Both the position numbers and the translations under genes were made by a program. From positions 32,004-96,003 of the forward strand of contig JAFZXK010000012.1 in the NCBI GenBank assembly GCA_017616785.1: a stretch of 64,000 nucleotides of DNA. Reading direction: 5' to 3'. This document shows positions 35,309 through 59,076 of this stretch, in pieces. The first letter of the stretch is position 1, and each line of letters starts with the position of its first letter. This DNA comes from Alphaproteobacteria bacterium (GTDB taxonomy: Bacteria; Pseudomonadota; Alphaproteobacteria; Rs-D84). The notes beneath the pieces are model-generated. The model made no database searches. It had not been told where the DNA came from and saw only the letters and a list, made by a program, of their open reading frames with translations.

Positions 35309-35368
35309 CCCGGGACTTAAGATTTTTGTAGCATGCAGGGAAGGATTATAAAATTTAAGGAAAGGAAA

Positions 35369-35917: not shown

Positions 35918-35943
35918 AAGAATTTTAATAAAAGGAAGAAAAG

Positions 35944-36525: not shown

Positions 36526-36532
36526 TTTTGGC

Positions 36533-36561
36533 TTGATTAAAATTTGTGGTTTTTTCTATAA
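36533..36561 (+). promoter_or_regulatory. consensus sigma70 promoter (TTGATT-N17-TATAAT) driving the large secreted-protein operon
   Basis: TTGATT at 36533-38, a 17-nt spacer, TATAAT at 36556-61. Lies ~37 nt upstream of the 36598 start and RBS. Confidence 0.6.
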
Positions 36562-36597
36562 TCACAAATGTATGGGGAGTGAATTTTGCTAAGAAGG

Positions 36598-38874: not shown

Positions 38875-38902
38875 TAAAACCGGATAAGGAAAGGAAAGAA
38901 AA

Positions 38903-41900
38903 ATGTTCAAAGGTTGGAAATTTTTGACCAGTTTTTGCGTTATGTTCGCAACGCTTTGTGGCGGGGCGTATGGCGCGGCAAGTGTTCGCGGTGGTGCGAC
39001 CGGACGTGCCGGTTCGCTTAGGACGCTTGGTGGCGGGACGAGTGCGACGGTCAAAACAAATGCGAACCAACCTGCCCCGTCGGTTGCGGTGACGGGCGAC
39101 GCGTCTGTGGCCGATTCGCCGCGTATGGTTACGGGAATTAGCACCGGACGGACGAAACTAAATCTTGCCTCGACCACGGGAACATCAGGTGGCCAGAACC
39201 TTAGTGAATTGCGCCAGGCCATAGAACAATTGCGTAATGATTATGATGCGTTGGATGAACGGTATAACACTTTGTTGGGTGATGTATCAAATGTGTCTGA
39301 TACGGCGCAAAATGCGAATTTAACGGCGGAAAGCAATGCAAACACACTTGTCGTTGTGCGTAGTGATTTGAACGATGCACAATCGGATCTTGCGGTTTTA
39401 AAGGCCGCCGGCGGTTTTGACGAAGCGCGTGTTCAACAAACGGTCGAAGGTGTCTTGGATGCCAGGGATTATGCGACACAATCGCAATTGGCGGCGACCG
39501 ATGTTGTGGCGCGTGGCGCGGTGCAATTGAACGATTTGTCGCAAAAATTAGATGCGTTGAATATTGCGGACCGGGATTATGTTGACACTATGGTTGCAAC
39601 TGGTATGAGTGACACCAGGGTCCAAGGTATTGTGAACGATTCGCTTAATAACACCATGGCGAATTACTATACGAAAAAGCAAGTTAATGATGCGATTAAT
39701 ACCGCAAAGGACGGTATGGTTGACAAAGATTATGTTGATTACCAGGTTCAAACCAGTATCGGTGACAAGGCGTCATACACTTATGTTGACCAAAAGGTTG
39801 CAACGGGCATGAACGAGGCCCAAGTCCAAGGTATTATCGGCAATGTGCTTGGTGGTACATTGGAAAATTATTATGATAAGGGGACGGTTGATTCCTTGGT
39901 CGATGCCGCCGTTGTGGACGCAAAAAATGGCATGGTGGACAAGGACTATGTTGATAATCAGGTTCGCGATATGGCGTCCAAAGATTGGGTTAATAATAAA
40001 ATCGCGGATATTGAAATCGGGGTCGATGAGTATGAAATTCGAAACATACTTGCCCAGGGTGACTATAAGACGGGTACACAGGTTGAAGGTATCGTAACAG
40101 ACGCACTTAATGGTGCACTTGGGAATTATTATACCCGGCAACAGGTTAACAAGGCAATTAGTGATGCCAAAGAGGGTATGGTTGGTATGGACCAACTTAA
40201 TTATCAACTTAGCGGTTTGGCACCAAAAAGTTGGGTGACCACCCAAATTGATAGTGCTGTTACAGACCTTGATTTTGGGTTGAACAGGGATGCGGTAAAG
40301 GCTGTGGTTGAAGAGTATGGATATAAAAATGAAAATGATGTCCGGGGTATTATAACTGGTTATGGTTATGTAAAAGAAACCGATATTCCAGACCTGGTTA
40401 ATCAATGGGCACCGGGCGCAGAGATACAATACGCGGACGGGAAGTTATATTTCGTGGATAAAGACGGAAACGATAGGGTCGTTGATATTCGCGGGCTGGA
40501 TGGGCAAGATGGTGCCCAGGTTGAACTTCAAAAGAATGGTGACGTGATTCAGTGGCGTTATGCCAGTGGAAATGACCAATCGTGGCATAACCTTGTTAAT
40601 TTGTCTGACTTGCGGGGGGCGGATGGCAAGTCAGTTGAATTTAGTGTTCAGCCCTATGGTCAGATAAAAGAAGCATTGGGGTATACAAAAGAAGGCGAAT
40701 CGAATTGGCAATTTTTATATAACCTTGACGATATAAATGGCACCGATGGGTGCGGGGTTCGGGCGACCCAGGTACCGGTTGACGGCGGAATATTGGTAAA
40801 ATTGTTACGCGATTGTGCGGGGCAACCGGGTGATGGGGATTTGTTAACGCAATTTACTATTTTGAACGGCGCCGATGGAACGGTGACGGATGAGCAAATT
40901 ATTGACGCGATGATGACCAGTCCGGAATTCATACAATTAATGCAAGTAAAGAACAAAGTTAATGATTCGGAAAAAGGTTTGGATGCCACATATAATTTGG
41001 CGCGTATGACGGCAAATGCGGTTGATGATGATAAAACGGGGCTTGAGGCAACATATGAATTGGCAAGTAACGCATGGGACAAGGTAAAAGATTTGGATAC
41101 AAATGTTACGACCAAGGATTATGTTGACAGTTATGTTAACGGGAAAATTGGTGAGTTAGATTATAACCCGGCAACATATGCAAAATTTGCAAGTGTTGGT
41201 GCTAAGTTGGGCTCTATTGGGAACATGACCGTGAAGGATTATGTTGATGAAAAGGTCCGTGGAATCACGACAGAGATCATGGTTGATAAAGGGACCGACG
41301 GTTTTACATACATCTGTAAAAATGGTAATACATGTGCAAATAAGCCAAATTATTGGGATAATGAATGGGAACGTATTGATGTTGATTTGACTGGTTATCT
41401 TAAACAGGAAACCGCAGATAATTTGTATGCATCTTTTGGAACCGAGGTTGTCGCGCGTGATGCCGCCACCGCCGCGACCAATGCCCAAACCACGGCGAAT
41501 AATGCATGGAATAAAGTGAAAGATTTGGGAGATGGTGTTACGGTTAGTGATTATGTCGATGAAAGAATCGGGACCATGGGATTTGACATGCTAACTGGTG
41601 ATGAATATACTGTTGCGAAAAAAATTGGCCTTGATGATCGCCAATACGGAAGCATGTCGGTAAAAGAGTATGTTGATAAAAAGGTTTCTGATGTTAATAC
41701 GAGTATTCAAATAGGTTCTTATAATAATCAAACATATATTTGCAAGCATAATGATTGCAAAACTCCTGCGGGACCGTATTATCCCGAAGATTGGGCGTTG
41801 ATTTCTGTGGACTTGTCGGGTTATCTTACAAGGAACGATGCAGAACGAGAGTTCGCATCGATTGAAACGGAATCCATAGCGGGTGCGGCACAGAATGCCG

Positions 41901-44443
41901 CGGCGAGTGCGCAAACCACCGCCGCCACCGCGCAGACAACGGCGAATAATGCGTTGGGCAAATTGGGTAATTTAGGAACCAAAACCGTGACCGAATATGT
42001 TGATGAGAAAGTTGGTAGTACTGGTTTGAGTATTCGTGTTGAAACTGGTACCGATGGTTATACGTATATTTGTACCGCAAAAGAATCGGATTGTCGTGAT
42101 GCGCCCTCGTCGTCTTCCTCTTATTGGTCGCGAATAAACTTTAATATACCTGATGAATATCTTACAGCAACAGAGGGTAATGAGTTGTATGCATTGAAAA
42201 CTCAAATTGGTACATTGGGCGGCAGTTTTACAAGTGTCGCGGATAAGATTGGCCTTAACGATTATCAGTATGGTAACACATCGGTAAAAGATTATGTTGA
42301 TAATAAGGTTAGTAATATTAGTACAAGCATCCAGATTGAAACATCAAATGGAACAACGTATATTTGCAAGACGGGTAGTGGTTGTCCAGAGTATGATTTG
42401 ACTAATACGACTTATTGGACACCGGTTGCCGTAAATCTTGGTAATTTGGGTACAAATCCATCAACGGGGCAAACATATACAGTTGCGCAAAAAATAGGTC
42501 TTACTGATTCCGCTAATATAAACAAGACAGTTGTTGGGTATGTTGGTGAAAAAATCGGTGATTTGGGTTCTTATAGCACATATTACGGTCAACAACCGCA
42601 TAGTGTATTAACTTATCTTCAGGCCAATTATGCACCTATAACAAGTATTGGAACTTTGGGTAAAATAAATGCCTCTACGGATGCCAGTAGTGTTGCAGAG
42701 AAACTTGGTCTCGAAATCACCAATGCTAATAACACGGTTGCTGGGTATATCACTGGAAGAATTGGAAGTACGGGAACTGATACTTATGGTCAACCAAAAA
42801 GTGTCGTAGATTTCCTTTCAACCACTTATGCCCCGTTGGCCAAGATTGGTGATTTAGGTGCGGCGTATACTGGTGCGCCAACCTATACTGTTGCGGAAAA
42901 AATTGGCCTTGTTGATAGTAATGTAAATAAGACGGTAAAGGGATATGTTGATGAAAAAATTGGTACTTTGGGTGATAATTATGCCAGTGTTGCAGCGAAA
43001 CTTGGGGAAGAAATCACCAATACTAACAAGACGGTGGCGACATATATTGCTGATGCGGTAAATGCGGCCGGAACCAGTATAGTGGTTAGATCTAGTGCCA
43101 CTGACGGCAATACATATATCTGTACAGGTTCAGATTGTTCGGCAACGGATCCGTATGGCGATAGTAATTGGACGAAACTTAATGTTAATTTAAGTGGTAT
43201 TAATGCCATACTTTCCGGCTTTGGGGGTGAAAACCAACCGGCGACGGTAAAGGGGTATATTAGTGATAAAATCGGTACTTTGGGTAAGGTTATTGTGGAT
43301 GGTGATCCTGTAAATGCCCAAAGTGTCGCTGAAAAAATCGGAACAGAAATTACAAGTGCAAACAAAACGGTAGCTGGATATGTTGATACTGCAATCAATG
43401 GGTTATCAAGCACGTATGCGGCAAAATTTGTTGAAGAGAAGTTTGGGGCGATGAATAGTCAAAGTACCGTCACAGATTATGTTGGATCTGTGTTGGGCGA
43501 TTTGGGTAAAAAAGATAATTCAACGAATGCCGCAAGCGTTGCGGAAAAACTTGGGACGGATATCACAAGTTACGATGGGACAGTGAAGGATTATATTGCG
43601 TATTATGTCAGTGAAAATGCTGCCAGTGGTGGTGTGGTGGTAAAACCTGGGACCGATGGGAATACATATATTTGCACAGGGACAGATTGTTCATCACATG
43701 AAAATGATCCGAATAATGATTCAACCAATTGGACAAAACTTAATGTGGATTTGACTGCGATTAACACCGCAATTACGAATTTGCAGACTGGTAAGGCGGA
43801 CAAAACGGAGATAGGCACGTTGGGAAAAGTAAATAGTTCAACTGATGCCAGCAGTGTTGCGGAAAAACTTGGAACAGAAATAACAAGTGCTGATAATACT
43901 GTCGCGGGTTACATTACAGGAAAAATTGGTGATTTGGGTAAAAAAGATAGTTCAACGAATGCCGCAAGCGTTGCTGCAAAACTTGGGACGGATATCACAA
44001 GTTACGATGGGACAGTGAAGGATTATATTGCGTATTATGTCAGTGAAAACGCGGCCAGTGGTGGGGTACAGGTAAAAACAGTTGGAAATGATACATACAT
44101 ATGCAGTGAAAATTGCGAATCCGATCCACCATGTCAAGAAGGCAGCGAATCCACGTGTGGTTGGCAAAAACTTCAGGTTAATTTGACAGAATACCTTAAG
44201 AGTTCGGTCGCGGCGAGTACTTATGTTGCAAGCGCGGGGCTTAAGTTGGTTCGTGATGGGGCAGATATTAAATTACAGCAGGTTTCTGATGGTACGGTAG
44301 TTAAAGATTATGGTGTGATTGCCGGGGTTCAAGATTTGATGTGTCAGTCATATGAAATGCAGGAAATTCTGGGTACCGATCCTAGGTATATTCCAGGAAA
44401 GGTTACTTATGAAATGGTTTGTGTGACCAATGGTAGTAATTAA
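38903..44443 (+). CDS. giant secreted fibrous repeat protein (1846 aa): coiled-coil N-region, collagen-like GXY segments, ~28 copies of a [VT]K[DGE]Y[VI]D.K[VI]G..G repeat
   Basis: RBS 'aaggaaaggaaagaaaaATG'. Signal peptide. Short collagen-like triplet runs: GLDGQDGAQ with only 3 GXY repeats, RGADGKS with 2. Many periodic 'VKDYVDEKV/ITGKIGDLG' units, each followed by small Cys-containing knobs (TYICK..GC). 28 nt after the previous gene. Confidence 0.85.
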   Translation: MFKGWKFLTSFCVMFATLCGGAYGAASVRGGATGRAGSLRTLGGGTSATVKTNANQPAPSVAVTGDASVADSPRMVTGISTGRTKLNLASTTGTSGGQNLSELRQAIEQLRNDYDALDERYNTLLGDVSNVSDTAQNANLTAESNANTLVVVRSDLNDAQSDLAVLKAAGGFDEARVQQTVEGVLDARDYATQSQLAATDVVARGAVQLNDLSQKLDALNIADRDYVDTMVATGMSDTRVQGIVNDSLNNTMANYYTKKQVNDAINTAKDGMVDKDYVDYQVQTSIGDKASYTYVDQKVATGMNEAQVQGIIGNVLGGTLENYYDKGTVDSLVDAAVVDAKNGMVDKDYVDNQVRDMASKDWVNNKIADIEIGVDEYEIRNILAQGDYKTGTQVEGIVTDALNGALGNYYTRQQVNKAISDAKEGMVGMDQLNYQLSGLAPKSWVTTQIDSAVTDLDFGLNRDAVKAVVEEYGYKNENDVRGIITGYGYVKETDIPDLVNQWAPGAEIQYADGKLYFVDKDGNDRVVDIRGLDGQDGAQVELQKNGDVIQWRYASGNDQSWHNLVNLSDLRGADGKSVEFSVQPYGQIKEALGYTKEGESNWQFLYNLDDINGTDGCGVRATQVPVDGGILVKLLRDCAGQPGDGDLLTQFTILNGADGTVTDEQIIDAMMTSPEFIQLMQVKNKVNDSEKGLDATYNLARMTANAVDDDKTGLEATYELASNAWDKVKDLDTNVTTKDYVDSYVNGKIGELDYNPATYAKFASVGAKLGSIGNMTVKDYVDEKVRGITTEIMVDKGTDGFTYICKNGNTCANKPNYWDNEWERIDVDLTGYLKQETADNLYASFGTEVVARDAATAATNAQTTANNAWNKVKDLGDGVTVSDYVDERIGTMGFDMLTGDEYTVAKKIGLDDRQYGSMSVKEYVDKKVSDVNTSIQIGSYNNQTYICKHNDCKTPAGPYYPEDWALISVDLSGYLTRNDAEREFASIETESIAGAAQNAAASAQTTAATAQTTANNALGKLGNLGTKTVTEYVDEKVGSTGLSIRVETGTDGYTYICTAKESDCRDAPSSSSSYWSRINFNIPDEYLTATEGNELYALKTQIGTLGGSFTSVADKIGLNDYQYGNTSVKDYVDNKVSNISTSIQIETSNGTTYICKTGSGCPEYDLTNTTYWTPVAVNLGNLGTNPSTGQTYTVAQKIGLTDSANINKTVVGYVGEKIGDLGSYSTYYGQQPHSVLTYLQANYAPITSIGTLGKINASTDASSVAEKLGLEITNANNTVAGYITGRIGSTGTDTYGQPKSVVDFLSTTYAPLAKIGDLGAAYTGAPTYTVAEKIGLVDSNVNKTVKGYVDEKIGTLGDNYASVAAKLGEEITNTNKTVATYIADAVNAAGTSIVVRSSATDGNTYICTGSDCSATDPYGDSNWTKLNVNLSGINAILSGFGGENQPATVKGYISDKIGTLGKVIVDGDPVNAQSVAEKIGTEITSANKTVAGYVDTAINGLSSTYAAKFVEEKFGAMNSQSTVTDYVGSVLGDLGKKDNSTNAASVAEKLGTDITSYDGTVKDYIAYYVSENAASGGVVVKPGTDGNTYICTGTDCSSHENDPNNDSTNWTKLNVDLTAINTAITNLQTGKADKTEIGTLGKVNSSTDASSVAEKLGTEITSADNTVAGYITGKIGDLGKKDSSTNAASVAAKLGTDITSYDGTVKDYIAYYVSENAASGGVQVKTVGNDTYICSENCESDPPCQEGSESTCGWQKLQVNLTEYLKSSVAASTYVASAGLKLVRDGADIKLQQVSDGTVVKDYGVIAGVQDLMCQSYEMQEILGTDPRYIPGKVTYEMVCVTNGSN

Positions 44444-44459
44444 TTGAGGGGATGAAAAA

Positions 44460-47400
44460 ATGAGAAAGGATATAACTTTTGGTTTGATTTGTTTTGCCAT
44501 GATGTTTGGTATGGCGGGTGGTGCGCTTGCCGCACTTGGAACGGGTGAAATATCCATGGGAACTTTTTCTATTCCGTTGCCTGCGGACGGCAAGGACGGA
44601 TGTGCGCCTTTGATTCGTTCTATTGATTCATCGGTGGATTCATCGATAGCCGATGGGTGTTACGTAATTCAACAAAAGCAACAAACCCGTAATGGCGATT
44701 CGTGTGAAGGAACCGGCTCATGGGAGAATATCACTACTGTTTGTGATGGTGATGATGGTGCAGGCCTTGGTGAAGAAGATATTGTTGTTGCATATGTGGC
44801 GTATCCTGATTCGACAGAAAGTTATACAATGCCCTATCAACAGGGATATATGACAAAAAGCGTAGGTAATACGGTTTTGAACAAGTCAGAAGATTATTGT
44901 GAAGAGTTTTATGAAGACGGGGTAACAAAAAAGAAATGCACTGCGCAAGGTGATGCGACAAATTGGCTAAACAGTGATGGCACTGGGAATTATCAGACGG
45001 GTGAAACATATGTCTTTGCAACCGATCAATTGAATGATGGTTATCCCCGCAATGAATACACAACACCAAGGTTGTCAGGTGGAAGTTCAGGTTATCCGAC
45101 TGCGCCGGGGGTTACGAACAGAGTTTATAGATATACAAGCGGGCGCGAACGGTTCGAACTTGTTGCAATTGATGCGTGTGATTGGTACGCAAAAAGAACA
45201 GATACGACTGATCGGGTTAGGAAATGCACTGTTGGGGCGCCGACGGGGACGCCGGGACTTGCCAACCCTTATACGGCCGGTGCAACATATTGCTTAGGTG
45301 ATCATCAAAGTAATTGTAGTCAATATACTGTGCTGGTTGGTGCGGTTGATACATGTGCAACTTTATCGTCCAGTGATACTGCGTGGTGGACAACCGTCGA
45401 TCATACCGAATCTGAGTATACTGATCCCAATTATAGTTCTAGTTGTACAACGAATTGTACCGGAACACCGGGATATAAAATTATTAAAGAAGTAATGTGT
45501 GATGGTACTGCGCACGAGACGACCCAAAATGATACTTGTAGCCCGGCACAGAGTACCAGTGTGACCTGTGCGAGTGGTTACATATGGCAAACATGTACAA
45601 AACGGACGGCGGTTGCGGATACTGCACATGGAACTTATTCGGGATGTTTTCCGGATCCGTTTAATGATTTGTACGCCCGAAGAACGGATATCATTCCGGC
45701 AAATTTTGCGGCGGATAGTAACTATTTGTATTATTGTCGGCGTTCGGATTGTGATACGAATGCCGCATGCTGGGTGGACGGTCAGATAAATGTAACGCCG
45801 TTGTGGAATAGTACAAATGGTTGTTGGGGACGTGTGTCTATAAATGGGCTCCAGGGTGATGCGGGACCGGGATGTTCGTTTGTTTACAATGGTACCAAGT
45901 GGCAGGTGTGTTGTTTGCCAGTTGGTGCCAATGGTGTCATAGATACAACACAAAGTTGGAGTTGTAATGATGTTGACGCCAATACTGAAGCGCAATTGAA
46001 CCAATGGTTGTGCAAACCGACATATACCACATTTTATCTGACCCCGAAAGCAGGTGGTGGTTATAATGAAACAGCGACTAGTTCGACCAGACCGAATGAT
46101 ACCGTTGGTATAAGAACAAGGATAACAAATTGTGATGGAACCCAAGGGGCAACGATAGATACATTTGATGGTGAAGATGGGGAGCCAGGGGGTGATTATA
46201 ATCCTTGTGATGGATTAGAGCCGGGGTCGGTTGCGGCACAGACAACCATACAAAGTCAAACATCTGTGTATGTTTCTAATACTTCAAGTAGTAATATATT
46301 CACACCAAAAGTTGGTTATTATCAGACAACCACCAACATGTGCGAAGGTAATCCGCAAATAACATATAAGCAAGATAAATGTATACCTGTGTCACTTGCA
46401 ACCGGGGATTCGCGTACTGTTGGAACTATTACTTGTGCTGCGAATCAGACATTAATGCGTTGTACGCCACAGGCAGGTGCCAGTACAGATCCATACTTTA
46501 TTTGCGAAAATGCCGAGGTCAGCGGGTATCCAGAAAAACAATATGTTGCACCAGCTGGGACCAATGGGGTATTGAATACGGCCGGTTACACGCGTTGGGC
46601 GCATAAATATACTAGTTCTTCATCAATAGTTTATGAGAAAATTGATGATGATACGTGTCGGAATGCGGTAAAGAGAACGCGTAATGCAGCAAATACACAA
46701 ACCACAACAAGGAACGTGTTAAAGTGTACTGTTCAGAACCCTGGGACTAATGGGTATACTGAAGGATCTTCATATTGTTTGTTTATGGCCAGTGGGGAAA
46801 ATTGTGATGATTATATCATAGCAGGCAGCGAAGTCGAAGAATATGAAACCAAGTATATGTCGCCGACCGGCAGCGATGGTGTGCTTACAAAAGAAGGATA
46901 TACGTGTAAACAAAGAAAACTTACGAGAACAGCTGCTGGATCAACGGATCCTGTTGTCGTGGAAGAATCATGTCAGCTGGTTGAAAAGGATACGTGTAAC
47001 AAGGCCGTAAAATACACCCGCACAACTAGCAATCAGGTTGTAAATATGGTAGAAAAAAGTTTATTAAAGTGCGAGGTTCAATATCCTGGTAATAGCTCTT
47101 ACACAGCCGGGACGTATTATTGTTTGAACCTGGGGGGGGGCGAGAATTGTGCTGATTATAATATCGTTGGTGACGTGTCAGAGCAATCACAAGATGAATA
47201 CGTTGCGCCGACCATGTCAGATGGCAAACCTACATCGGTTGGATATCTGCGGACCAGTGTGACAAATACTAGGTTCGCATCGGGTAGTCAAACCTATTAT
47301 ACAAATGAACGCAAGGATCCAGGTCGTAAAGTTTATAAGGGAACAAGTAGCACCATAAAGTATACTGTTCAGGCACCTGGGGCTGGATCTGAACCATTTA

Positions 47401-49184
47401 TAACTGGTGCAGAATATTGCCTTAATATGACAATTGGCGAATGCCAAACGTATAAAGATGATGATCCTTGTGCGTCGGTAGCGACAGCGTCTGATGCGGT
47501 AAAGGCCAAGACAGTGCAAAAGATTTTAGAACGCACTTATTCACCTGCCAATAATAGTCAAGGTTCGATGGTTTCGACATACAAAATGTGTGATGATTCG
47601 ACGCATACGGAATCCACGCCGGATGAATGCAGGGAGGTGCCAACGCCGGCGGGCCAGACCTGTACTAATGGGGTATGGATGCAGTGTACGCGTCAAGCGG
47701 ACGAAGGAACCGGTACCAGTACCGCGCGTGGAACCACGTATGGATATTGTGCTGTATATCCACAATGTGTTGGGAATGAAAGTAGCACATCGATAGTAAA
47801 AAAGACGCAACGTTCGTATACTCCGCCGACCAAAACCGGTAGTAACAGTTATTATGATACGGTCGGTAAAATAACGGATGTTAAGATTGCGTGTGATAAT
47901 AGTTCAACCACGATAGAATCGGTGGATGATGAATGCGATGAAATTCCGAATACCACAAGTATTTGTCCGGCTGACAAGGTCCTTAAACAATGTAAACGTC
48001 AGGGGAAACAGGATAGCGATCTTGCCGGGTCGACATATAATTTGTGTACAGTATATCCGCAATGTGTTGGGAATACGAGTTCCGCTACGATTGTGAAAAA
48101 GACGGAACGTTCATATACTGCACCTGGTGGATCTGGTGGTTCTGGTGATAAAACATACTATACTACGGTTGGTAAGGTTACGGATGTTAAGGTTGCGTGT
48201 AATGGGACCACGATATCTACGGAGGAATCGGCCGAGGATCAATGTGATGAAATTCCGAATACCGCCAGTGTTTGCCCAACTAACAAGGTCCTTAAAACAT
48301 GTACACGCAAGGGTAACCAGGGTACGAGTAATGACACAAAAGCCGGGACGACATACAATCTTTGTACGACCGGGCCTTCTATATATGGTTCAATTGCCGA
48401 TAATGACCCGTGTGGTGGTGATACGACCAGTGATTCGGCAAAGAAAAAGGTCAAGAGCATTCAATATGAATATATAACAAAGGATGCAACCGGAAACACC
48501 GCCAAGGTTGGATACAGTAAAAAAACAACCACGATGTGTAATCAGGCGGGGAACACGGATGAATATATATATGATACTTGTATTCCAGTAGCATCTGCAT
48601 CAGGATGTAATGGGGCAAATGATAAGAATTATAAGTGTTATAACCAAACCAAACTTACGAGTACTAATGCCAGTGAACGTGAATATAACACATGCAATCC
48701 ATCATCGAATGTTTCGTCGGTTGCGCTATCTAATAAAATTGATGGGAAGTTGGATAATGATGTCACGTTTACAACTGGGACTTATGATAACAAAGATTAT
48801 ATTTTGATGAGTGCGACAGGGATAACTAATAAACCCGTGGTGCCGGTTGACACATTAAAACCACAATCCTTATTCGATACTTGGAAGGAAGAACAGAAAA
48901 ACAAGAACTGGACGGCAGCTGAATGTGCGGCGCTTTTTGGAAGCGGGGTGAATTGTAGCACGGGTGCTGGGTTGACTACGGAGATGATGTTTCAAAGTTT
49001 TACGGACTATGGGGTTTGGAAACAGGAACAGGTTGAAGATGGTGAAACCGATGCGGCGGATTTAACAACAACGGTGTACAGGCAAAGTTTATCTTCGTGT
49101 CCGGGTGGAATCACACTTACGCCGAATGGGACAGATGCCAATGGCGGAAATAAATATACGATGACTTGTGCGGATGCGTCATAG
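44460..49184 (+). CDS. giant secreted Cys-rich repeat protein (1574 aa), paralogue of the downstream 829-aa protein
   Basis: 16 nt after the previous stop. Signal peptide. The N-terminal domain (DGCAPLI...CYVIQQKQQTRNGDSCEGTGSWENITTVCDG) is homologous to the N-terminus of the 49218 gene. Tandem ~95-aa units of form ..RSYT.P....YY.TVGK.TDVK.ACD...T....D.CDEIPNT...CP..KVLK.C.R.G. Confidence 0.85.
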   Translation: MRKDITFGLICFAMMFGMAGGALAALGTGEISMGTFSIPLPADGKDGCAPLIRSIDSSVDSSIADGCYVIQQKQQTRNGDSCEGTGSWENITTVCDGDDGAGLGEEDIVVAYVAYPDSTESYTMPYQQGYMTKSVGNTVLNKSEDYCEEFYEDGVTKKKCTAQGDATNWLNSDGTGNYQTGETYVFATDQLNDGYPRNEYTTPRLSGGSSGYPTAPGVTNRVYRYTSGRERFELVAIDACDWYAKRTDTTDRVRKCTVGAPTGTPGLANPYTAGATYCLGDHQSNCSQYTVLVGAVDTCATLSSSDTAWWTTVDHTESEYTDPNYSSSCTTNCTGTPGYKIIKEVMCDGTAHETTQNDTCSPAQSTSVTCASGYIWQTCTKRTAVADTAHGTYSGCFPDPFNDLYARRTDIIPANFAADSNYLYYCRRSDCDTNAACWVDGQINVTPLWNSTNGCWGRVSINGLQGDAGPGCSFVYNGTKWQVCCLPVGANGVIDTTQSWSCNDVDANTEAQLNQWLCKPTYTTFYLTPKAGGGYNETATSSTRPNDTVGIRTRITNCDGTQGATIDTFDGEDGEPGGDYNPCDGLEPGSVAAQTTIQSQTSVYVSNTSSSNIFTPKVGYYQTTTNMCEGNPQITYKQDKCIPVSLATGDSRTVGTITCAANQTLMRCTPQAGASTDPYFICENAEVSGYPEKQYVAPAGTNGVLNTAGYTRWAHKYTSSSSIVYEKIDDDTCRNAVKRTRNAANTQTTTRNVLKCTVQNPGTNGYTEGSSYCLFMASGENCDDYIIAGSEVEEYETKYMSPTGSDGVLTKEGYTCKQRKLTRTAAGSTDPVVVEESCQLVEKDTCNKAVKYTRTTSNQVVNMVEKSLLKCEVQYPGNSSYTAGTYYCLNLGGGENCADYNIVGDVSEQSQDEYVAPTMSDGKPTSVGYLRTSVTNTRFASGSQTYYTNERKDPGRKVYKGTSSTIKYTVQAPGAGSEPFITGAEYCLNMTIGECQTYKDDDPCASVATASDAVKAKTVQKILERTYSPANNSQGSMVSTYKMCDDSTHTESTPDECREVPTPAGQTCTNGVWMQCTRQADEGTGTSTARGTTYGYCAVYPQCVGNESSTSIVKKTQRSYTPPTKTGSNSYYDTVGKITDVKIACDNSSTTIESVDDECDEIPNTTSICPADKVLKQCKRQGKQDSDLAGSTYNLCTVYPQCVGNTSSATIVKKTERSYTAPGGSGGSGDKTYYTTVGKVTDVKVACNGTTISTEESAEDQCDEIPNTASVCPTNKVLKTCTRKGNQGTSNDTKAGTTYNLCTTGPSIYGSIADNDPCGGDTTSDSAKKKVKSIQYEYITKDATGNTAKVGYSKKTTTMCNQAGNTDEYIYDTCIPVASASGCNGANDKNYKCYNQTKLTSTNASEREYNTCNPSSNVSSVALSNKIDGKLDNDVTFTTGTYDNKDYILMSATGITNKPVVPVDTLKPQSLFDTWKEEQKNKNWTAAECAALFGSGVNCSTGAGLTTEMMFQSFTDYGVWKQEQVEDGETDAADLTTTVYRQSLSSCPGGITLTPNGTDANGGNKYTMTCADAS

Positions 49185-49217
49185 TAGATAAATCTAGATC
49201 GATAAAGAGGGTTAAAG

Positions 49218-51707
49218 ATGAGAAAAAATATTTTGATTGTTGCTGTTTTTGGGGCGTGCATGATGAACGGTGTCATGGCTGCGTATACAATCGGTGAATT
49301 TACCGCACCGCGTGGCGCGAACGGAGCAAATGGAACGAATGGTACAAATGGCACAAATGGTGCTGATGCTTGCCCGCCGTTGATTTCGTCAGATACAAAA
49401 GATGCGAACGGTTGTTTTGTTGTTAAACAGAGGGCTCAGGTTCGTAATAATGGAAGCTGTCAGGCCACGGGAAGTTGGACGACCATTGATACGGTGTGTG
49501 ATTGTCGGCCGACGGAGACAAGGACCCGCTGTTACGGGACGGGGGATAATAAGTGCGATGATACCACGCGTACGGGGGTAAAGATTGTTACAACACAATG
49601 TGATGGCACAGGTTCGACAACTTCTTATATTTATGATAATGATTGCGGTATCACGATTGCAAGTGTGGCCGATGTCCACCGAGATAATGATTCTAATGAG
49701 CCGGTTACACATAAAAGGGTTACATTCAAAGATTGCAACAATAATACATTGTCGACGACGGCGGATATTCCGGTTGGTACTGATGGTGCCGCGTGTGAAG
49801 CCGAAGTGGTAACTACGGCCTGTGGACCAGTAGGCACGGCATCGGTACGTTGTGCCGATACAGCAAAACGCGGTATCAAGGTTGAACGCAAGAATTGTTC
49901 TGGTCAAATTGTTGATGCTGATACGCAGTATATATATAATGGCGATAATGGAACATCATTTAACTTTATGGGAACCGTCGCAAGTTGTGGGGCTTTACAG
50001 GTCAAGCCAGGGGTACGAAACGATGCATGGCTGGTTGGAACCAAGGGCGATGGTGACGGAGAAGGCAAACTTTGTATTTATGGTGAGAACGGATGGCCGA
50101 CCAATTGCCCAGATGACTGTGCGGAGTTTACTGGGCCTGCGGGTGCAAACAATTGTACAGCACTTGAAGATTCGAGTACGGCAGTGAAAAACAGTACATT
50201 GGCATATAGCGCGCCAACTAAAACCAATCAATCAGATGCATATTATACGGGGCGTGGAGGAATGCTGCGGACAAATGTTATGTGCAACCCAAATTTGAAT
50301 AATACAATAGAAAAATTGGAAGATACTTGTTTCCAAATAGTAAAGCCAACGAATAGTGCATGTACTGGGGTATATATGGAATGCACTCCTAAGGGAACCT
50401 ATGAAGGAAACACAAATTATTCAAAATATAATCTTTGTGTAACGACGACCGGAACAACGATTGAATCAGCATTAAGTAACAAAGAAGATAATCCGTGTGC
50501 AGGGAATAATTCAAGTTCAACAACAATAGAAAGAACCCAAACAACCGCGTATAGTGTACCGACTGGTAATACTACAACAGTAAGCAGTTATACGTATTAT
50601 ACTAATGCGCCTGGGAAAGTTGTTACAACCAGTGTAAAGTGTGATACTTCGGGGAATACAGTAATAGGAACTACACAAGATAAGTGTGTCGAGATTACAA
50701 AGCCGACGGGTGTCTGTACAAGTAACGATAAAAAGTTTTATCAATGTAAACCACAGGGGAAAATTGGAAGTGATACTAACCTGACGCCTTATTATCTTTG
50801 TGCGTCAGAATTGGAGCCATCATTGTTAGATAAAATTAATACGGCGCAGAATACGGCTGCTGAGGCGGCGAGTGCGGCGGAGACGGCAAATCCGTGTGTG
50901 GGAAGTAATTCAAATTCGGCGACAATAATAAAAAGTACGACAAGCACATCGTATAATCGCGGTACAAAGAGTGATGGTCTTTACCCAAGTATAGGCGGCA
51001 AGACCGTTACCAAAACCGCATGTGACGGGACCACAACTTATGTGACGACAGAGCAAGATTCTTGTGTTGAAATTGCAAAGCCAAGCGGTGTGTGTACACC
51101 AGCATCATCGGCTTATCTGCGTTGTTATAATGCACAAGTGAATTCTGATAACACATATTATGTTTGTCAGGATTTAGGTGATGGGAATAAGGCACTAAAT
51201 AATAAGATTGATGGCAAGGCGGATGCAACCGCGGTAACAGCCAGTGCATTAGCAAACACTTTGGGAAGCACATATTTGAAACCGACTGATAGTATAAGTG
51301 CTAGTAATTTAACGGGAACAATTGATGCCGGGAGATTGCCGAACACTGTTGTAACAACGGGTGATGATGCGACACATGGTTTTAATACGTTAATTGGTAA
51401 CGCCGTTCAGACCGAAGTAGCAACTCAAATTGAGAGTGCGAAACTTGTGAGCGAAAGTGACTTGGCTGATTATGTAAAAACTGATGGCACCAATTTGCCG
51501 AATAGTGTTGTCACGACAACTTCTTTGGGTACCCAAACATTTAATTTTGGTAAAGATAGCAACGATAATGATATTAGTTTAAGTATCAGCGAAATTGTAT
51601 CATTGCTTCATGCAGCAGCCGGGACATGTACACGGAACGCCGAGAGTGGAACAACAACTTGTCAGGGCGGAAGTTTGGGGACAATAACAACTTCGACTAG
51701 ACAATAG
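49218..51707 (+). CDS. secreted Cys-rich repeat protein (829 aa) with a collagen-like (G-x-N)6 tract and a tail-fibre-like C-terminal region
   Basis: RBS 'aaagagggttaaagATG'. Signal peptide. RGANGANGTNGTNGTNGADA encoded by near-perfect 9-nt tandem repeats. N-terminal domain and Cys repeat units shared with the 1574-aa protein. C-terminal ...SASNLTGTIDAGRLPNTVV... segment. Followed by a terminator. Confidence 0.85.
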   Translation: MRKNILIVAVFGACMMNGVMAAYTIGEFTAPRGANGANGTNGTNGTNGADACPPLISSDTKDANGCFVVKQRAQVRNNGSCQATGSWTTIDTVCDCRPTETRTRCYGTGDNKCDDTTRTGVKIVTTQCDGTGSTTSYIYDNDCGITIASVADVHRDNDSNEPVTHKRVTFKDCNNNTLSTTADIPVGTDGAACEAEVVTTACGPVGTASVRCADTAKRGIKVERKNCSGQIVDADTQYIYNGDNGTSFNFMGTVASCGALQVKPGVRNDAWLVGTKGDGDGEGKLCIYGENGWPTNCPDDCAEFTGPAGANNCTALEDSSTAVKNSTLAYSAPTKTNQSDAYYTGRGGMLRTNVMCNPNLNNTIEKLEDTCFQIVKPTNSACTGVYMECTPKGTYEGNTNYSKYNLCVTTTGTTIESALSNKEDNPCAGNNSSSTTIERTQTTAYSVPTGNTTTVSSYTYYTNAPGKVVTTSVKCDTSGNTVIGTTQDKCVEITKPTGVCTSNDKKFYQCKPQGKIGSDTNLTPYYLCASELEPSLLDKINTAQNTAAEAASAAETANPCVGSNSNSATIIKSTTSTSYNRGTKSDGLYPSIGGKTVTKTACDGTTTYVTTEQDSCVEIAKPSGVCTPASSAYLRCYNAQVNSDNTYYVCQDLGDGNKALNNKIDGKADATAVTASALANTLGSTYLKPTDSISASNLTGTIDAGRLPNTVVTTGDDATHGFNTLIGNAVQTEVATQIESAKLVSESDLADYVKTDGTNLPNSVVTTTSLGTQTFNFGKDSNDNDISLSISEIVSLLHAAAGTCTRNAESGTTTCQGGSLGTITTSTRQ

Positions 51708-51713
51708 GTTTAA

Positions 51714-51740
51714 AAAACACCGCCCAAATGGCGGTGGTTG
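51714..51740 (+). terminator. intrinsic terminator ending the secreted-protein operon (CACCGCCCAAATGGCGGTGG)
   Basis: Hairpin closely related to the dnaK terminator (CCGCCCAAATGGGCGGG). Also serves the convergent HTH gene. Confidence 0.6.
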
Positions 51741-51756
51741 TCGTTTGAAAAATATT

Positions 51757-52170
51757 TTATTCGCCTTCGGTTAATGTTTTTAGCAAGTTCATTACGGATT
51801 CGCGTTGTTTGTCACTGGACAATTTCCAATACATGCGAATCAATTCCAAACTTTCCGTGCGAACCAATGGATCGTCCGCGTTTGGTGAATGAACGTGAAT
51901 TGAACGACTGCTTTTTGTTTCGTCCGGCATATTCCCCGGCAACCCAATAAAGAAAAATGAAACCGGCGTTTGCATGGCACGCCCTATTTCAAATAAACGT
52001 GATGCGGATATGCGGTTGTCCGCACTTTCGTATTTCTGAATTTGTTGAAAAGTAACGCCACAGACGTGCGCCAAATCCTTTAATGATAATCCCATCATAG
52101 TCCGGCGCAATTGCATGCGTTTGCCGATATGTTGATCAACCGTTGATGGTATATATGCTTTCCCAGACAT
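51757..52170 (-). CDS. XRE-family helix-turn-helix transcriptional regulator
   Basis: 137 aa. HTH_XRE signature QHIGKRMQLRRTMMGLSLKDLAHVCGVTFQQIQKYESADNRISASRLFEIGRAM. Confidence 0.75.
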   Translation of the reverse strand: MSGKAYIPSTVDQHIGKRMQLRRTMMGLSLKDLAHVCGVTFQQIQKYESADNRISASRLFEIGRAMQTPVSFFFIGLPGNMPDETKSSRSIHVHSPNADDPLVRTESLELIRMYWKLSSDKQRESVMNLLKTLTEGE

Positions 52171-54923: not shown

Positions 54924-55805
54924 ATGGATAATGCAAATAATAATGTTCCACCATCGGAAATGATTGTTGATGTGCGCCCCGTGCTGGATCATATTGGCGC
55001 ATGGCGTGGTGCCTGGGTGGTCAGTACCTGTGTTGGACGAAATGGTAGAATAAACAAAAGATGGATTGAACCATTAAGAGATGGTCAAATTAAATGCGGG
55101 TCGTTGGGTGTGTTCAATGGGGATATATTCGAACAACAACAAGATTATTATGATGCAAAATACGATATTGTGACTGTGCAATCAATTAACTACAAAGCCA
55201 TAGGGTTTAATTCAGGAATTGATTTTGTAACTTACAATGTGTATTCTCCGAAAAATGGTTTTGATGGTATTCCTTCACAACGACTGGATGTTGATGTTCT
55301 TGGTGGGTATAGTTGTGACATTGCCTGTGTTGGAAATAATTTGTTATTGGACAAAGATAATAGAATATTGGCTAATTTAACGACAGAAGAAAATATTTAT
55401 GATTTGTGGAACGGACGTAATTTAAAAAAATATAATTTGCGCCTTGATCGTGGTGGTACCAAAAGAAAATATTATACTATTACATACCCACATGAAAGTA
55501 TTGGCATGCCGGCTGTGATGTTGGGACATGGTATAGGAAACGTTAATACAGATTTCGTATTTATTCCAGAATATAACAAGGGTTCAAAATGTGATATTCG
55601 TATTGAAGGTCTTTGGCAACCTATGCCCAGACCAAGCGATATTGTGTTATTAGAAGCGACCGAACAAGAAAACATATTCGTTCTGAAAAGGAACCTGACG
55701 TTGTGTTGTCAAAATCAAGAAATGGATAAAAAATTCGGCTTAGCGGAATATCAAAATAAAATGCGTCGCGTATGGGAAAAAGCTTTGCGAAACGAACACC
55801 AATAA
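54924..55805 (+). CDS. hypothetical protein (293 aa), no recognisable domain or signal peptide
   Basis: RBS 'aaaggag' 7 nt upstream. Clean ORF between rsmD and rplY. Asn/Asp/Gly-rich. Confidence 0.55.
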   Translation: MDNANNNVPPSEMIVDVRPVLDHIGAWRGAWVVSTCVGRNGRINKRWIEPLRDGQIKCGSLGVFNGDIFEQQQDYYDAKYDIVTVQSINYKAIGFNSGIDFVTYNVYSPKNGFDGIPSQRLDVDVLGGYSCDIACVGNNLLLDKDNRILANLTTEENIYDLWNGRNLKKYNLRLDRGGTKRKYYTITYPHESIGMPAVMLGHGIGNVNTDFVFIPEYNKGSKCDIRIEGLWQPMPRPSDIVLLEATEQENIFVLKRNLTLCCQNQEMDKKFGLAEYQNKMRRVWEKALRNEHQ

Positions 55806-58666: not shown

Positions 58667-58738
58667 TATGGTATAAAAGTTAGATACGTTCAATTTGCTT
58701 TTTGAATATAATTGAAAAAAATATTACAACACAAAACC

Positions 58739-58958
58739 CGCGGGAATCCGCGGTTTTTTGTGTTTTGGGGTGGTATAAAAAAACCAAGGTTTTTAGTCAA
58801 CCACTTTTTTCAAAAAATCAAAAATTTTTTTCATAGTAAAAACAATAGATTACAAATTTTGCCATTTCCGCCGTGGTGGTGTAAAAAAAACCTTGGTTTT
58901 TTTATACCACCCCAAAACACAAAAAAACCGCAGATTCCCGCGGGTTGTATCACGAAAT
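58739..58958. mobile_element. MITE-like element: ~62-bp near-perfect inverted repeats flanking an ~85-bp AT-rich core
   Basis: Left arm 58739-58805 is the reverse complement of right arm 58890-58958 with 1-2 mismatches (...cccgcgggaatccgcggttttttgtgttttggggtggtataaaaaaaccaaggttttt). No ORF. Each arm contains a CCGCGG-centred hairpin. Confidence 0.55.
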
Positions 58959-59076
58959 TCTTTTTTAAATTATGTCGGGAAAAACAAGCCGGGCGCTTTC
59001 GCGCCCGCTGTCGCGGCTCCGCTTTGCGGAGACGGATAGCCCCCGTCCACCGAAGCCCAACGGGCGAAGGCGGAAC

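What the first reader, a model, noticed from the sequence alone, without database searches (positions are those of the whole stretch)
44460..51707. Paralogous pair: the 1574-aa and 829-aa proteins share an N-terminal domain and the same ~95-aa Cys repeat unit
N-termini align: DGCAPLIRSIDSSVDSSIADGCYVIQQKQQTRNGDSCEGTGSWENITTVCDG against DACPPLISSDTKDANGCFVVKQRAQVRNNGSCQATGSWTTIDTVCDC. The repeats in both follow ..YS/T.P....YYT.VGK.T..K.ACD.....T...D.C.EI......C......C..QGK......Y.LC. Both also carry the L[SN]NKIDGK[LA]D motif before their C-terminal regions. A conserved N-terminal module fused to variable repeat number and a different C-terminus is the pattern of polymorphic surface-antigen or receptor-binding families. 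These can undergo cassette exchange by recombination.
Basis: seen in the sequence. Interest (0 to 1): 0.6.

Follow-up and report, generated by a model that had tools for sequence, protein, structure and literature searches.

The report
Hypervariable tail-fibre-like secreted fibre proteins
Two neighbouring genes of a tiny-genome gut alphaproteobacterium encode related, secreted, cysteine-rich "beads-on-a-string" proteins built from a previously undescribed ~95-residue domain, and they sit in a fast-evolving, mosaic gene island that most likely makes cell-surface fibres for attaching to a partner or host.

Summary
ORFs 44460-49184 (1574 aa) and 49218-51707 (829 aa) are paralogues. They share a 4-Cys N-terminal module (27 of 49 aligned residues identical, z≈24 against shuffles), a ~95-aa six-Cys repeat (11 and 3 copies) and the LxNKIDGKxD motif, and they have unrelated C-termini.

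The repeat gives a confident all-β AlphaFold model (pLDDT 95) with no Pfam, NCBIfam, PDB or BFVD match. Its profile finds only 43 of 1.84 billion protein representatives.

The organism is an uncultured Rs-D84/Ca. Enterousia relative (<1 Mb, proposed to be partner-dependent). With a third giant secreted protein (1846 aa), the pair forms a 12.9-kb island between a conserved 762-aa gene and an HTH gene. More distant relatives lack the island.

Against the closest genome, flanking proteins are 82-98% identical, but the 1574-aa protein is 41% identical. Identity along both genes is mosaic. Repeat number, the N-terminal module, the C-terminal domain and paralogue number (2-3) all vary.

One module matches phage tail-fibre families in orthologues, but the context is chromosomal and both proteins carry signal peptides.

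Best reading: surface fibres with swappable tips, analogous to Bdellovibrio MAT fibres, diversified by recombination between lineages. Intragenomic cassette exchange is not supported.

The parts
44460..49184 (+). Gene for the 1574-aa 'long' family member. Architecture: signal peptide, N4C module, R6C copies, middle region, R6C copies, Cterm1574 domain.
   Evidence: ORF; RBS GAGGGGA upstream; exact protein on record as hypothetical protein J5714_02860; domain map
49218..51707 (+). Gene for the 829-aa 'short' family member. Architecture: signal peptide, GXY stretch, N4C, M45, M50, M45, GDY module, three R6C copies, linker, Cterm829 domain.
   Evidence: ORF; RBS AGAGGG; J5714_02865; domain map; AlphaFold model pLDDT 72, separate domains
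44460..44531 (+). Sec-type signal peptide of the 1574-aa protein (MRK, hydrophobic core, ALA|A)
   Evidence: read from the sequence; no predictor was run
44598..44750 (+). N4C: ~47-aa four-Cys module shared with the 829-aa protein
   Evidence: (z≈24)
45051..45647 (+). Two R6C repeat copies (residues 198-272 and 307-396). A weaker copy lies at about residues 95-184.
   Evidence: iterated HMM
45648..46223 (+). Non-repeat Cys-rich middle region of the 1574-aa protein, with two short GXY stretches; conserved in all long-type orthologues
46224..48695 (+). Array of eight R6C repeat copies (589-682, 692-772, 782-888, 897-967, 1004-1097, 1103-1196, 1202-1302, 1323-1412)
   Evidence: AlphaFold model of copy 1103-1196, pLDDT 95.4
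47748..48324 (+). Recent tandem duplication of one R6C unit. The two halves are ~80% identical in DNA and both best match the single copy in the closest genome.
   Evidence: (D7-D9)
48726..48755 (+). LSNKIDGKLD motif after the last repeat
48750..49172 (+). Cterm1574: ~140-aa C-terminal domain, also found on short family members in other genomes
49218..49280 (+). Sec-type signal peptide of the 829-aa protein (VMA|A)
   Evidence: read from the sequence
49314..49361 (+). Collagen-like G-X-Y stretch (GANGANGTNGTNGTNG), partly encoded by an 18-nt tandem DNA repeat; triplet number varies among orthologues
49368..49505 (+). N4C module of the 829-aa protein
   Evidence: pLDDT about 80-87
49500..49946 (+). 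Small Cys-containing β modules M45, M50, M45, each ending in G-x-D-G
49941..50147 (+). GDY module (G.DGTS..(K/M)GTV..C..L...(G/N)DAY.V...G..(C/Y)IY.G..(W/F)P.CP...F.GP.G). The same module in 7 of 8 orthologues tested matches phage tail-fibre PHROGs.
   Evidence: the window's own copy gave no hit
50154..51167 (+). Three R6C repeat copies (313-407, 427-528, 560-650), with an Ala-rich helix (536-556) before the third
51195..51224 (+). LNNKIDGKAD motif after the last repeat
51537..51686 (+). Cterm829: small C-terminal β-β-α-β-β domain with two Cys; also found on one long-type protein (P0039)
38903..44443 (+). Third gene of the island: 1846-aa secreted repeat protein, unrelated in sequence to the pair, variable from about residue 900 onward; one segment matches a phage tail PHROG
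51718..51736 (.). G+C-rich hairpin between the convergent 829-aa and HTH genes. It is terminator-like on both strands. No terminator-like site lies in the gaps between the island genes.
36586..38874 (+). Left boundary of the island: conserved 762-aa secreted Cys-rich protein. It is a backbone gene, also present in genomes without the island.
51757..52170 (-). Right boundary of the island: conserved HTH_3 (XRE-type) regulator gene

Best explanation
The 1574-aa and 829-aa proteins are anciently diverged paralogues of a family restricted to a subclade of the uncultured, reduced-genome gut Alphaproteobacteria Rs-D84 / Candidatus Enterousia.

Shown:
- Both carry Sec signal peptides and are chains of small, independently folding, disulfide-type β modules.
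- The main module is a new ~95-aa six-Cys domain (R6C), present in 11 and 3 copies.
- Other parts are a 4-Cys module, short collagen-like G-X-Y spacers, and one of two exchangeable C-terminal domains. In the 829-aa protein there is also a module shared with phage tail-fibre proteins.
- With a third giant secreted protein they form a tightly spaced, probably co-transcribed 12.9-kb island inserted into an otherwise conserved chromosomal backbone.
- The island is hypervariable and mosaic between close relatives.

Inferred:
- After export and disulfide formation the proteins become extracellular fibres.
- The short conserved N-terminal segment ((I/M)GxF..P.G..G plus G-X-Y triplets) holds the fibre at the cell envelope and may nucleate oligomerisation.
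- The R6C beads form a shaft whose length is set by copy number.
- The distal C-terminal domain binds a ligand on a partner cell, host surface or mucus.
- Diversity arises from recombination between lineages, occasional duplication or loss of modules and genes, and fast sequence divergence. It does not arise from a programmed cassette system inside one genome.

Functionally this would work like the mosaic adhesive trimer (MAT) fibres of Bdellovibrio.
For: Paralogy and module map.

Export: N-terminal signal peptides with AxA sites, about 4.7% Cys, no cytoplasmic-type domains.

New domain:
- AlphaFold pLDDT 95.4 from 73 repeat copies.
- No Foldseek match in PDB (best E 0.69, TM 0.22) or BFVD.
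- No Pfam, NCBIfam or PDB-sequence hit.
- Only 43 proteins at E≤1e-3 among 1.84 billion representatives.

Beads-on-a-string: separate confident domains and pTM 0.29.

Organism: a syntenic contig is named Ca. Enterousia sp.. Rs-D84 genomes are <1 Mb, lack respiration and the TCA cycle, and a partner-dependent lifestyle has been proposed for them (PMC12306168).

Island:
- The same gene order occurs in five related loci.
- The backbone without any fibre gene occurs in L018 and L019.
- Intergenic gaps are 16-33 nt and there is a single terminal hairpin.

Hypervariability and mosaicism:
- Flanking proteins are 82-98% identical, against 41% for the 1574-aa protein.
- DNA identity is continuous at 88-95% outside 41.6-51.7 kb and patchy inside.
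- Per-100-aa identity ranges from 1% to 92%, with different best relatives per segment.
- C-terminal domain swaps, presence or absence of the N4C module, 1-4 or 6-12 repeats, and 2-3 paralogues per locus.

Tail-fibre link:
- The GDY module of 7 of 8 orthologues hits phrog_3904, 819 and 8780 at E 1e-4 to 1e-7.
- N-termini of distant family members hit tail-fibre PHROGs at E 1e-9 to 1e-14.
- A segment of the 1846-aa protein hits phrog_19976 at E 4.5e-6.

Functional analogue: Bdellovibrio MAT fibres have a signal peptide, a conserved N-terminal domain, a fibre shaft and swapped C-terminal tips on the cell surface (PMC10769870).
Against: - No experimental or proteomic evidence places these proteins on the cell surface.
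- No outer-membrane translocation or anchoring device (autotransporter barrel, YadA anchor, T1SS signal, lipobox) was found in them.
- Oligomeric state is unknown. The G-X-Y stretches are very short (2-5 triplets) and were modelled with low confidence.
- The window's own GDY segment does not reach any PHROG, so the tail-fibre link for this exact protein is transitive.
- No ligand or partner is known.
- The rest of the genome could not be searched for further copies.
Confidence: 0.55

Rival explanations
1. Structural envelope or periplasmic proteins (an S-layer-like coat, sheath or matrix) with no specific binding role. Their variability would be a by-product of selection by phages, protist grazers or host immunity on an exposed coat.
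For: - Signal peptides, high Thr/Ser/Cys content and repetitive architecture.
- A large share of a small genome is invested in giant secreted proteins, including the 7570-aa ORF.
- Hypervariability is equally expected for phage-receptor or antigen escape.
Against: - Exchangeable, discrete C-terminal domains on shafts of variable length are typical of tip-binding fibres rather than lattice-forming coats.
- The island is absent from related genomes that keep the backbone, so it is not an essential envelope layer.
Confidence: 0.2
2. A programmed antigenic-variation system: the two genes exchange cassettes with each other or with silent copies by intragenomic gene conversion.
For: - Shared modules in two adjacent genes.
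- A mosaic pattern between genomes.
- One recent internal duplication.
Against: - No shared DNA repeats between the genes; the paralogues are only 27-38% identical in protein.
- No silent or partial module copies in any frame of the window.
- Each repeat is a positional orthologue of the same copy in other genomes, so there is no homogenisation within a genome.
- The genome-collection scan returned one locus per genome.
- No invertible or TR/VR-like repeats were found.
Confidence: 0.07
3. Genes of a prophage, tailocin or gene-transfer-agent remnant, i.e. true virion tail fibres.
For: PHROG tail-fibre hits of the GDY module in orthologues, of the N-termini of distant relatives, and of a segment of the 1846-aa protein. 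Collagen-like spacers and mosaicism are common in tail fibres.
Against: - All three proteins have N-terminal Sec signal peptides.
- No other virion, integrase or lysis gene lies in the island or its flanks, which are SecA, DnaE, RsmH, iPGM, TadA, L25 and DnaK.
- The position is stable and syntenic across species.
- No relative was found in 2.9 million IMG/VR contigs.
- The R6C domain has no BFVD fold match.
Confidence: 0.05
4. Polymorphic toxins: a conserved delivery and repeat region carrying a variable C-terminal toxin domain.
For: A variable, exchangeable C-terminal domain on a repetitive scaffold.
Against: - Only two recurrent C-terminal types were seen, both Cys-containing and without any toxin-family hit.
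- No small immunity gene follows either gene; the next genes are another fibre gene or the conserved HTH gene.
- There are no pre-toxin, RHS, filamentous haemagglutinin or T6SS/T7SS markers.
Confidence: 0.03

Closest known systems
Bdellovibrio bacteriovorus mosaic adhesive trimer (MAT) fibre proteins (PMC10769870)
   Same: A chromosomally encoded multi-paralogue family in a bacterium that depends on other cells. Shared features are a signal peptide, a conserved element right after it, a long modular fibre shaft, diverse and swapped C-terminal tip domains, and a resemblance to phage tail fibres.
   Different: - No detectable sequence relation: no PDB-sequence hit to the solved MAT fragments and no S74 domain.
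- The shaft is made of disulfide-type R6C beads rather than an intertwined β-prism or β-helix.
- The conserved N-terminal element is about 15 residues plus G-X-Y triplets, not a ~130-aa domain.
- There are 2-3 clustered genes instead of about 21 dispersed ones.
- Trimer formation and surface location are untested.
Phage tail-fibre / collagen-like minor tail proteins (PHROGs 3904, 819, 8780, 1806, 13286, 19976)
   Same: They share the GDY module and, in distant family members, an N-terminal module of the 'SAYQIWL…GTE..FL.SL.G' type. They also share short collagen-like spacers, mosaic evolution and C-terminal domain exchange.
   Different: Signal peptides are present, the chromosomal context is stable with no virion genes, and there are no relatives in IMG/VR. 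The dominant R6C, N4C and both C-terminal domains have no phage counterpart.
Bacterial collagen-like surface proteins (Bacillus BclA, Streptococcus Scl1/Scl2)
   Same: A G-X-Y stretch near the N-terminus (directly after the signal peptide in the Scl proteins) with a globular domain beyond it; triplet number is variable.
   Different: Only about 5 triplets instead of tens, and no Pfam Collagen hit. The bulk of the protein is Cys-rich β modules.
Gene-conversion antigenic variation loci (Anaplasma msp2, Borrelia vlsE, Neisseria pilE/pilS)
   Same: Variable exported proteins with conserved ends in a host-associated bacterium; segmental mosaicism.
   Different: No silent cassettes and no recombinogenic repeats were seen, and the repeats are positional orthologues across genomes.

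Membership tests
Phage tail-fibre proteins (virion components) | Significant match to a tail-fibre family profile | tested here: inconclusive
   The full proteins and the window's GDY segment give no PHROG hit. The homologous GDY segment of 7 of 8 orthologues hits phrog_3904/819/8780 at E 1e-4 to 1e-7. Only about 70 of 829 residues are concerned.
Phage tail-fibre proteins (virion components) | Encoded among other virion, lysis or integration genes of a phage or prophage | tested here: not met
   The flanks are SecA, DnaE, RsmH, iPGM, TadA, RsmD, L25 and DnaK, syntenic across species. There are no relatives in IMG/VR.
Phage tail-fibre proteins (virion components) | Cytoplasmic assembly, i.e. 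no secretion signal | tested here: not met
   Both proteins start with typical Sec signal peptides with AxA sites, conserved in orthologues. This was read from the sequence; no predictor was run.
Bdellovibrio MAT superfamily | Conserved ~130-aa β-rich N-terminal domain immediately after the signal peptide | not testable with these tools
   No MAT N-terminal sequence or profile was available here. In the present family the element shared by all members after the signal peptide is only an (I/M)GxF..P.G motif plus G-X-Y triplets.
Bdellovibrio MAT superfamily | Sequence or fold relation to solved MAT fragments; S74 chaperone-protease in the S74 subfamily | tested here: not met
   No PDB-sequence hit at E≤1 for either protein or for the family profiles. 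No Peptidase_S74 hit in Pfam. Foldseek against PDB gave nothing meaningful.
Bdellovibrio MAT superfamily | Signal peptide, fibre shaft and mosaic, swappable C-terminal tip domains in several paralogues | tested here: met
   This is an architectural resemblance only.
Bdellovibrio MAT superfamily | Intertwined homotrimer located on the cell surface | not testable with these tools
   Only monomer prediction was available.
Bacterial collagen-like proteins (Pfam Collagen, PF01391) | Long uninterrupted G-X-Y region recognised by the Collagen profile | tested here: not met
   No Pfam hit at E≤0.1. The longest stretch is 5 triplets.
Autotransporter / trimeric autotransporter adhesins | C-terminal β-barrel translocator (Autotransporter or YadA_anchor domain) | tested here: not met
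   No such Pfam or NCBIfam hit. The C-terminal domains are small Cys-containing α/β or β domains.
Cassette-based antigenic variation systems (msp2, vlsE, pilE/pilS type) | Silent, partial donor copies sharing high-identity DNA with the expressed gene | tested here: not met
   None in the 64-kb window. One locus per genome was found in the genome-collection scan. The rest of this genome was not available.
Diversity-generating retroelement targets | Template/variable repeat pair near the 3' end, and a reverse transcriptase nearby | tested here: not met
   No TR/VR-like direct repeat in 36.5-51.8 kb. The neighbouring genes are housekeeping genes.

The most novel reading that the evidence does not exclude
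The island encodes the partner-recognition organelle of an obligately partner-dependent alphaproteobacterium: secreted fibres assembled from exapted phage tail-fibre modules plus a new disulfide-rich β-fold (R6C). Their exchangeable tip domains and shaft length would determine which cell or host surface the bacterium attaches to, making them a bacterial 'receptor-binding protein' system evolving like phage host-range determinants.
Probability: 0.25. Interest if true: 0.75.

Novelty: new variant of a known kind. Interest (0 to 1): 0.5.

Why it matters
Rs-D84/Enterousia bacteria are widespread in animal and human guts and have genomes under 1 Mb. They are thought to live off partners, but nothing is known about how they make contact (PMC12306168).

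This island is a concrete candidate for that interface. It is exported, modular, hypervariable and tail-fibre-like. It would give a handle for finding the partner or ligand, using the tip domains as probes.

It also adds a confidently modelled, apparently new six-Cys β-domain family to protein space. And it offers a second possible example, after Bdellovibrio MAT fibres, of a cell-dependent bacterium using phage-like mosaic fibres.

If the proteins are simply a variable coat, the finding is of local interest only.

Tried and rejected
Searches that found nothing:
- Pfam, NCBIfam, PHROGs and PDB-sequence searches of the full proteins gave nothing significant.
- Foldseek of the R6C model against PDB and BFVD gave no match.
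- Foldseek of the whole 829-aa model against PDB gave only meaningless long β-rich alignments (TM about 0.06).
- Scans of IMG/VR with the family alignment and with the 1574-aa protein found no relatives.
- The JGI metagenome scan found none with the 829-aa protein and three loci with the family alignment; these were not analysed further.
- Literature searches on Enterousia and Rs-D84 found nothing on these proteins.

Unavailable or failed:
- The genome-collection scan with the repeat alignment failed because no stretch was conserved enough.

Ideas tested and rejected:
- That the modules (R6C, N4C, M45, M50, GDY) are variants of one another: rejected by hhalign, probabilities ≤5%.
- That the 1846-aa, 762-aa or 7570-aa neighbours are further paralogues: rejected.
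- That the upstream trio (194 aa, 193 aa, 762 aa) is dedicated fibre machinery: rejected as a necessity, because the trio persists in genomes without any fibre gene.
- Lipoprotein anchoring: the Cys inside the signal peptide is not in a lipobox and is not conserved.
- DGR, invertible-promoter and slipped-strand mechanisms: no supporting repeats, apart from the short GTN-encoding 18-nt repeat.

Technical note: my 'mid1574' HMM drifted onto other modules and was ignored outside the long-type proteins.

Full report
**Observation**

The window carries two adjacent + strand ORFs at exactly the stated coordinates: 44460-49184 (1574 aa) and 49218-51707 (829 aa). Each sits behind a purine-rich ribosome-binding site.

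BLASTP of the two proteins gives E=7e-18 over the repeat region and E=3e-13 over the first ~95 residues. With the signal peptides removed, the N-terminal modules align with 27 identities in 49 aligned pairs. The local score is 146, against 25.6±5.0 (maximum 49) in 2,000 shuffles, z≈24.

An HMM seeded on five obvious repeat copies, then iterated on the family, recovers three copies in the 829-aa protein. It recovers ten to eleven in the 1574-aa protein, including degenerate ones, so nearly the whole long protein is built from this unit. The motif L[SN]NKIDGK[LA]D follows the last repeat in both. The C-terminal domains are unrelated.

**Anatomy**

Both proteins begin with Sec-type signal peptides (MRK, hydrophobic core, AxA). 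They are rich in Thr, Ser, Gly and Cys (4.7-4.8% Cys).

I defined the modules with HMMs:
- N4C: about 47 aa, four Cys.
- R6C: about 95 aa, up to six Cys.
- M45 and M50: small Cys-containing modules, each ending in G-x-D-G.
- GDY: about 70 aa.
- Two alternative C-terminal domains: Cterm1574 (~140 aa) and Cterm829 (~50 aa).
- Short collagen-like G-X-Y stretches, the longest being GANGANGTNGTNGTNG in the 829-aa protein, partly encoded by an 18-nt tandem DNA repeat.

Profile-profile comparison shows these modules are not variants of one another.

An AlphaFold model of one R6C copy, built on 73 repeat copies, is very confident: pLDDT 95.4, an all-β domain of six strands. Across 254 copies, Cys3 and Cys5 are nearly invariant and Cys2 co-occurs with Cys6. 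This suggests, as an inference, the pairs C3-C5, C2-C6 and C1-C4.

The full 829-aa model (pLDDT 72, pTM 0.29) is a string of separately confident domains. It has an Ala-rich helix before the third repeat and a β-β-α-β-β C-terminal domain.

**What is known about these parts**

The R6C profile finds only 43 proteins at E≤1e-3 among 1.84 billion cluster representatives. The two proteins find 22 and 18 relatives among 5.8 billion sequences, all unnamed and from metagenomes or MAGs.

The more distant relatives are also signal-peptide proteins. They mix R6C with N4C, M45 and GDY modules, collagen-like spacers and long Ala/Thr/Ser-rich helical tails. Their N-terminal modules hit phage tail-fibre and tail PHROGs at E 1e-9 to 1e-14.

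The GDY module of seven of eight 829-type orthologues hits phrog_3904, 819 and 8780 (tail fibre, tail, minor tail) at E 1e-4 to 1e-7. The window's own copy, which carries an insertion, does not. A segment of the neighbouring 1846-aa protein hits phrog_19976 at E 4.5e-6.

**Organism and locus**

The exact proteins are on record as hypothetical proteins J5714_02860 and J5714_02865 of a 'MAG: Alphaproteobacteria bacterium', found in ruminant gut assemblies. A syntenic contig is named Candidatus Enterousia sp.. Enterousia belongs to order Rs-D84, whose genomes are below about 1 Mb and lack the TCA cycle, respiration and parts of glycolysis. They have been proposed to depend on partner organisms (PMC12306168).

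The gene order in the window is:
- SecA, DnaE, RsmH;
- a 194-aa membrane protein and a 193-aa protein;
- a 762-aa secreted Cys-rich protein;
- the 1846-aa, 1574-aa and 829-aa proteins;
- then, convergent, an HTH_3 regulator, followed by iPGM, TadA, RsmD, L25 and DnaK.

The same order recurs in five related loci, with two or three family paralogues. A more distant genome keeps the backbone with two R6C proteins. Two still more distant genomes keep the backbone, including the 165-200-aa pair and the 762-aa homologue, with no gene at all between the 762-aa homologue and the HTH gene.

The three large genes are therefore a 12.9-kb island (about 38875-51756) in a conserved backbone. The 762-aa protein has more than 1,000 full-length homologues. 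It is a lineage core gene, not dedicated island machinery.

The gaps between the 762-aa gene and the three island genes are 16-33 nt. The only terminator-like hairpin lies after the 829-aa gene. Co-transcription is plausible but inferred.

**Variability**

Against the closest genome (L005), protein identities are:
- flanking proteins, 82-98%: RsmH 91, HTH 97, iPGM 95, TadA 94, RsmD 88, L25 83, DnaK 98;
- the upstream trio: 95, 98 and 89;
- the 1846-aa protein: 71% over its first 1,432 residues only;
- the 1574-aa protein: 41%;
- the 829-aa protein: 82% over about half its length.

At DNA level, identity is continuous (88-95%) up to position 41628 and from 51756 onward, and patchy in between.

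Identity per 100 residues swings between 1% and 92%, and different segments are closest to different relatives:
- Residues 1301-1500 of the long protein are 90-92% identical to P0024 but 44-58% to P0025.
- Residues 901-1000 are 72% identical to P0025 and absent from P0024.
- The N4C end of the short protein is present in P0002 and absent from P0003.

Every R6C copy is most similar to the copy at the same position in some other genome (52-86%), and only ≤43% to other copies in its own genome. The exception is copies 9 and 10 (57% protein, about 80% DNA identity), which are a recent tandem duplication of a unit that is single in L005.

Architecture varies across the family:
- N4C is present in 8 of 22 short-type proteins.
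- There are 1-4 repeats in short types and 6-12 in long types.
- The C-terminal domain is swapped in both directions (short proteins with Cterm1574; one long protein with Cterm829).

**Interpretation**

What is shown is a lineage-restricted, exported, modular, mosaic and fast-evolving paralogous family inside an accessory island, sharing at least one module with phage tail fibres.

What I infer is that these are extracellular fibres:
- The conserved extreme N-terminus ((I/M)GxF..P.G plus G-X-Y) is proximal to the cell and may nucleate oligomerisation.
- The R6C beads form a spacer of adjustable length.
- The exchangeable C-terminal domain is the distal binding tip.

This is the logic of phage receptor-binding fibres, and of the Bdellovibrio MAT fibres. 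The latter are signal-peptide proteins with a conserved N-terminal domain, a trimeric shaft and swapped tips on the predator surface (PMC10769870).

Given the proposed partner dependence of Rs-D84 bacteria, a role in attachment to a partner cell or host surface is the most economical function. I put this at about 0.55. The main alternative is a non-specific variable coat (0.2).

Polymorphism, variable repeat number and different C-termini are borne out. Cassette exchange inside the genome is not:
- no recombinogenic DNA identity between the two genes;
- no silent copies in the window;
- positional orthology of the repeats rather than homogenisation;
- one locus per genome in the collection scan.

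The mosaicism points to recombination between lineages at a fixed locus, plus occasional duplication and loss.

A prophage or tailocin origin of the present genes is unlikely. They carry signal peptides, the context is housekeeping and syntenic, and there are no IMG/VR relatives. A polymorphic-toxin reading lacks toxin or immunity signatures.

**Limits**

- There is no localisation, expression or oligomerisation evidence.
- No outer-membrane export or anchoring route was identified.
- The tail-fibre link for the window's own protein is transitive.
- Fold novelty was tested only with Foldseek against PDB and BFVD.
- The rest of the genome was not available.

**Verdict**

The finding is real and more extensive than described. 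It fails the membership tests for every named family I considered: phage tail fibres as virion parts, MAT, collagen-like proteins, autotransporters, cassette systems and DGR targets. It does work, by architecture and evolutionary behaviour, like mosaic tail-fibre-like adhesive fibres.

I rate it a new variant of a known kind, with a probably new domain, and of moderate interest (0.5).

Noticed in passing
window 4947-27659 (+): A single 7570-aa ORF (22.7 kb). Its only Pfam hits are Flg_new / Listeria-Bacteroides repeats. With the island genes, giant secreted proteins take up more than half of this 64-kb window in an organism whose relatives have genomes under 1 Mb.
   Followed up: partly
window 35333-38874 (+): A conserved trio follows RsmH. 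It consists of a 194-aa membrane protein with a CPVC motif, a 193-aa protein that is 95-98% identical across species and ends in NCCIE, and a 762-aa secreted Cys-rich protein with an Arg/Thr/Ala-rich N-terminal region and more than 1,000 full-length homologues. None has a Pfam or NCBIfam match. The trio persists in genomes that lack the fibre island.
   Followed up: partly
window 38903-44443 (+): The 1846-aa island protein has its own repeat systems: about nine copies of a motif of the 'TVKDYVDEKIG' type, several 'GTDGNTYIC…C' units, and a 150-nt duplication at 43496-43645 / 43928-44077 that is 93% identical. Residues about 535-578 match phage tail family phrog_19976 (E 4.5e-6).
   Followed up: partly
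window 54924-55805 (+): The 293-aa ORF between RsmD and L25 has no family hit. In the related loci L005, L007 and L009 it is absent or replaced by different small ORFs, so this is a second small variable spot in the conserved backbone.
   Followed up: no
window about 58700-59000: GC skew switches sharply from about +0.15 to about -0.25, and the gene orientation flips from + to - at the same place. This could be a replication-related strand switch (a terminus-like convergence) or only the effect of coding strand.
   Followed up: no
L015 1-3419 (contig STEW19-1 scaffold_3): A more distant family member (P0057, 1110 aa, with several tandem N4C-like units by eye) lies in a different context, after ClpP/ClpX. 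It is about 6.6 kb downstream of an 1806-aa protein with a YadA_anchor domain, so some related genomes also carry classical trimeric autotransporter adhesins.
   Followed up: no
L009 13784-15292; L012 9671-11440; L014 6875-8659: Some related loci carry a third, short paralogue (GDY, 1-2 R6C copies, Cterm1574) between the long and short genes. The window lacks it, so paralogue number at this locus varies between 2 and 3.
   Followed up: yes
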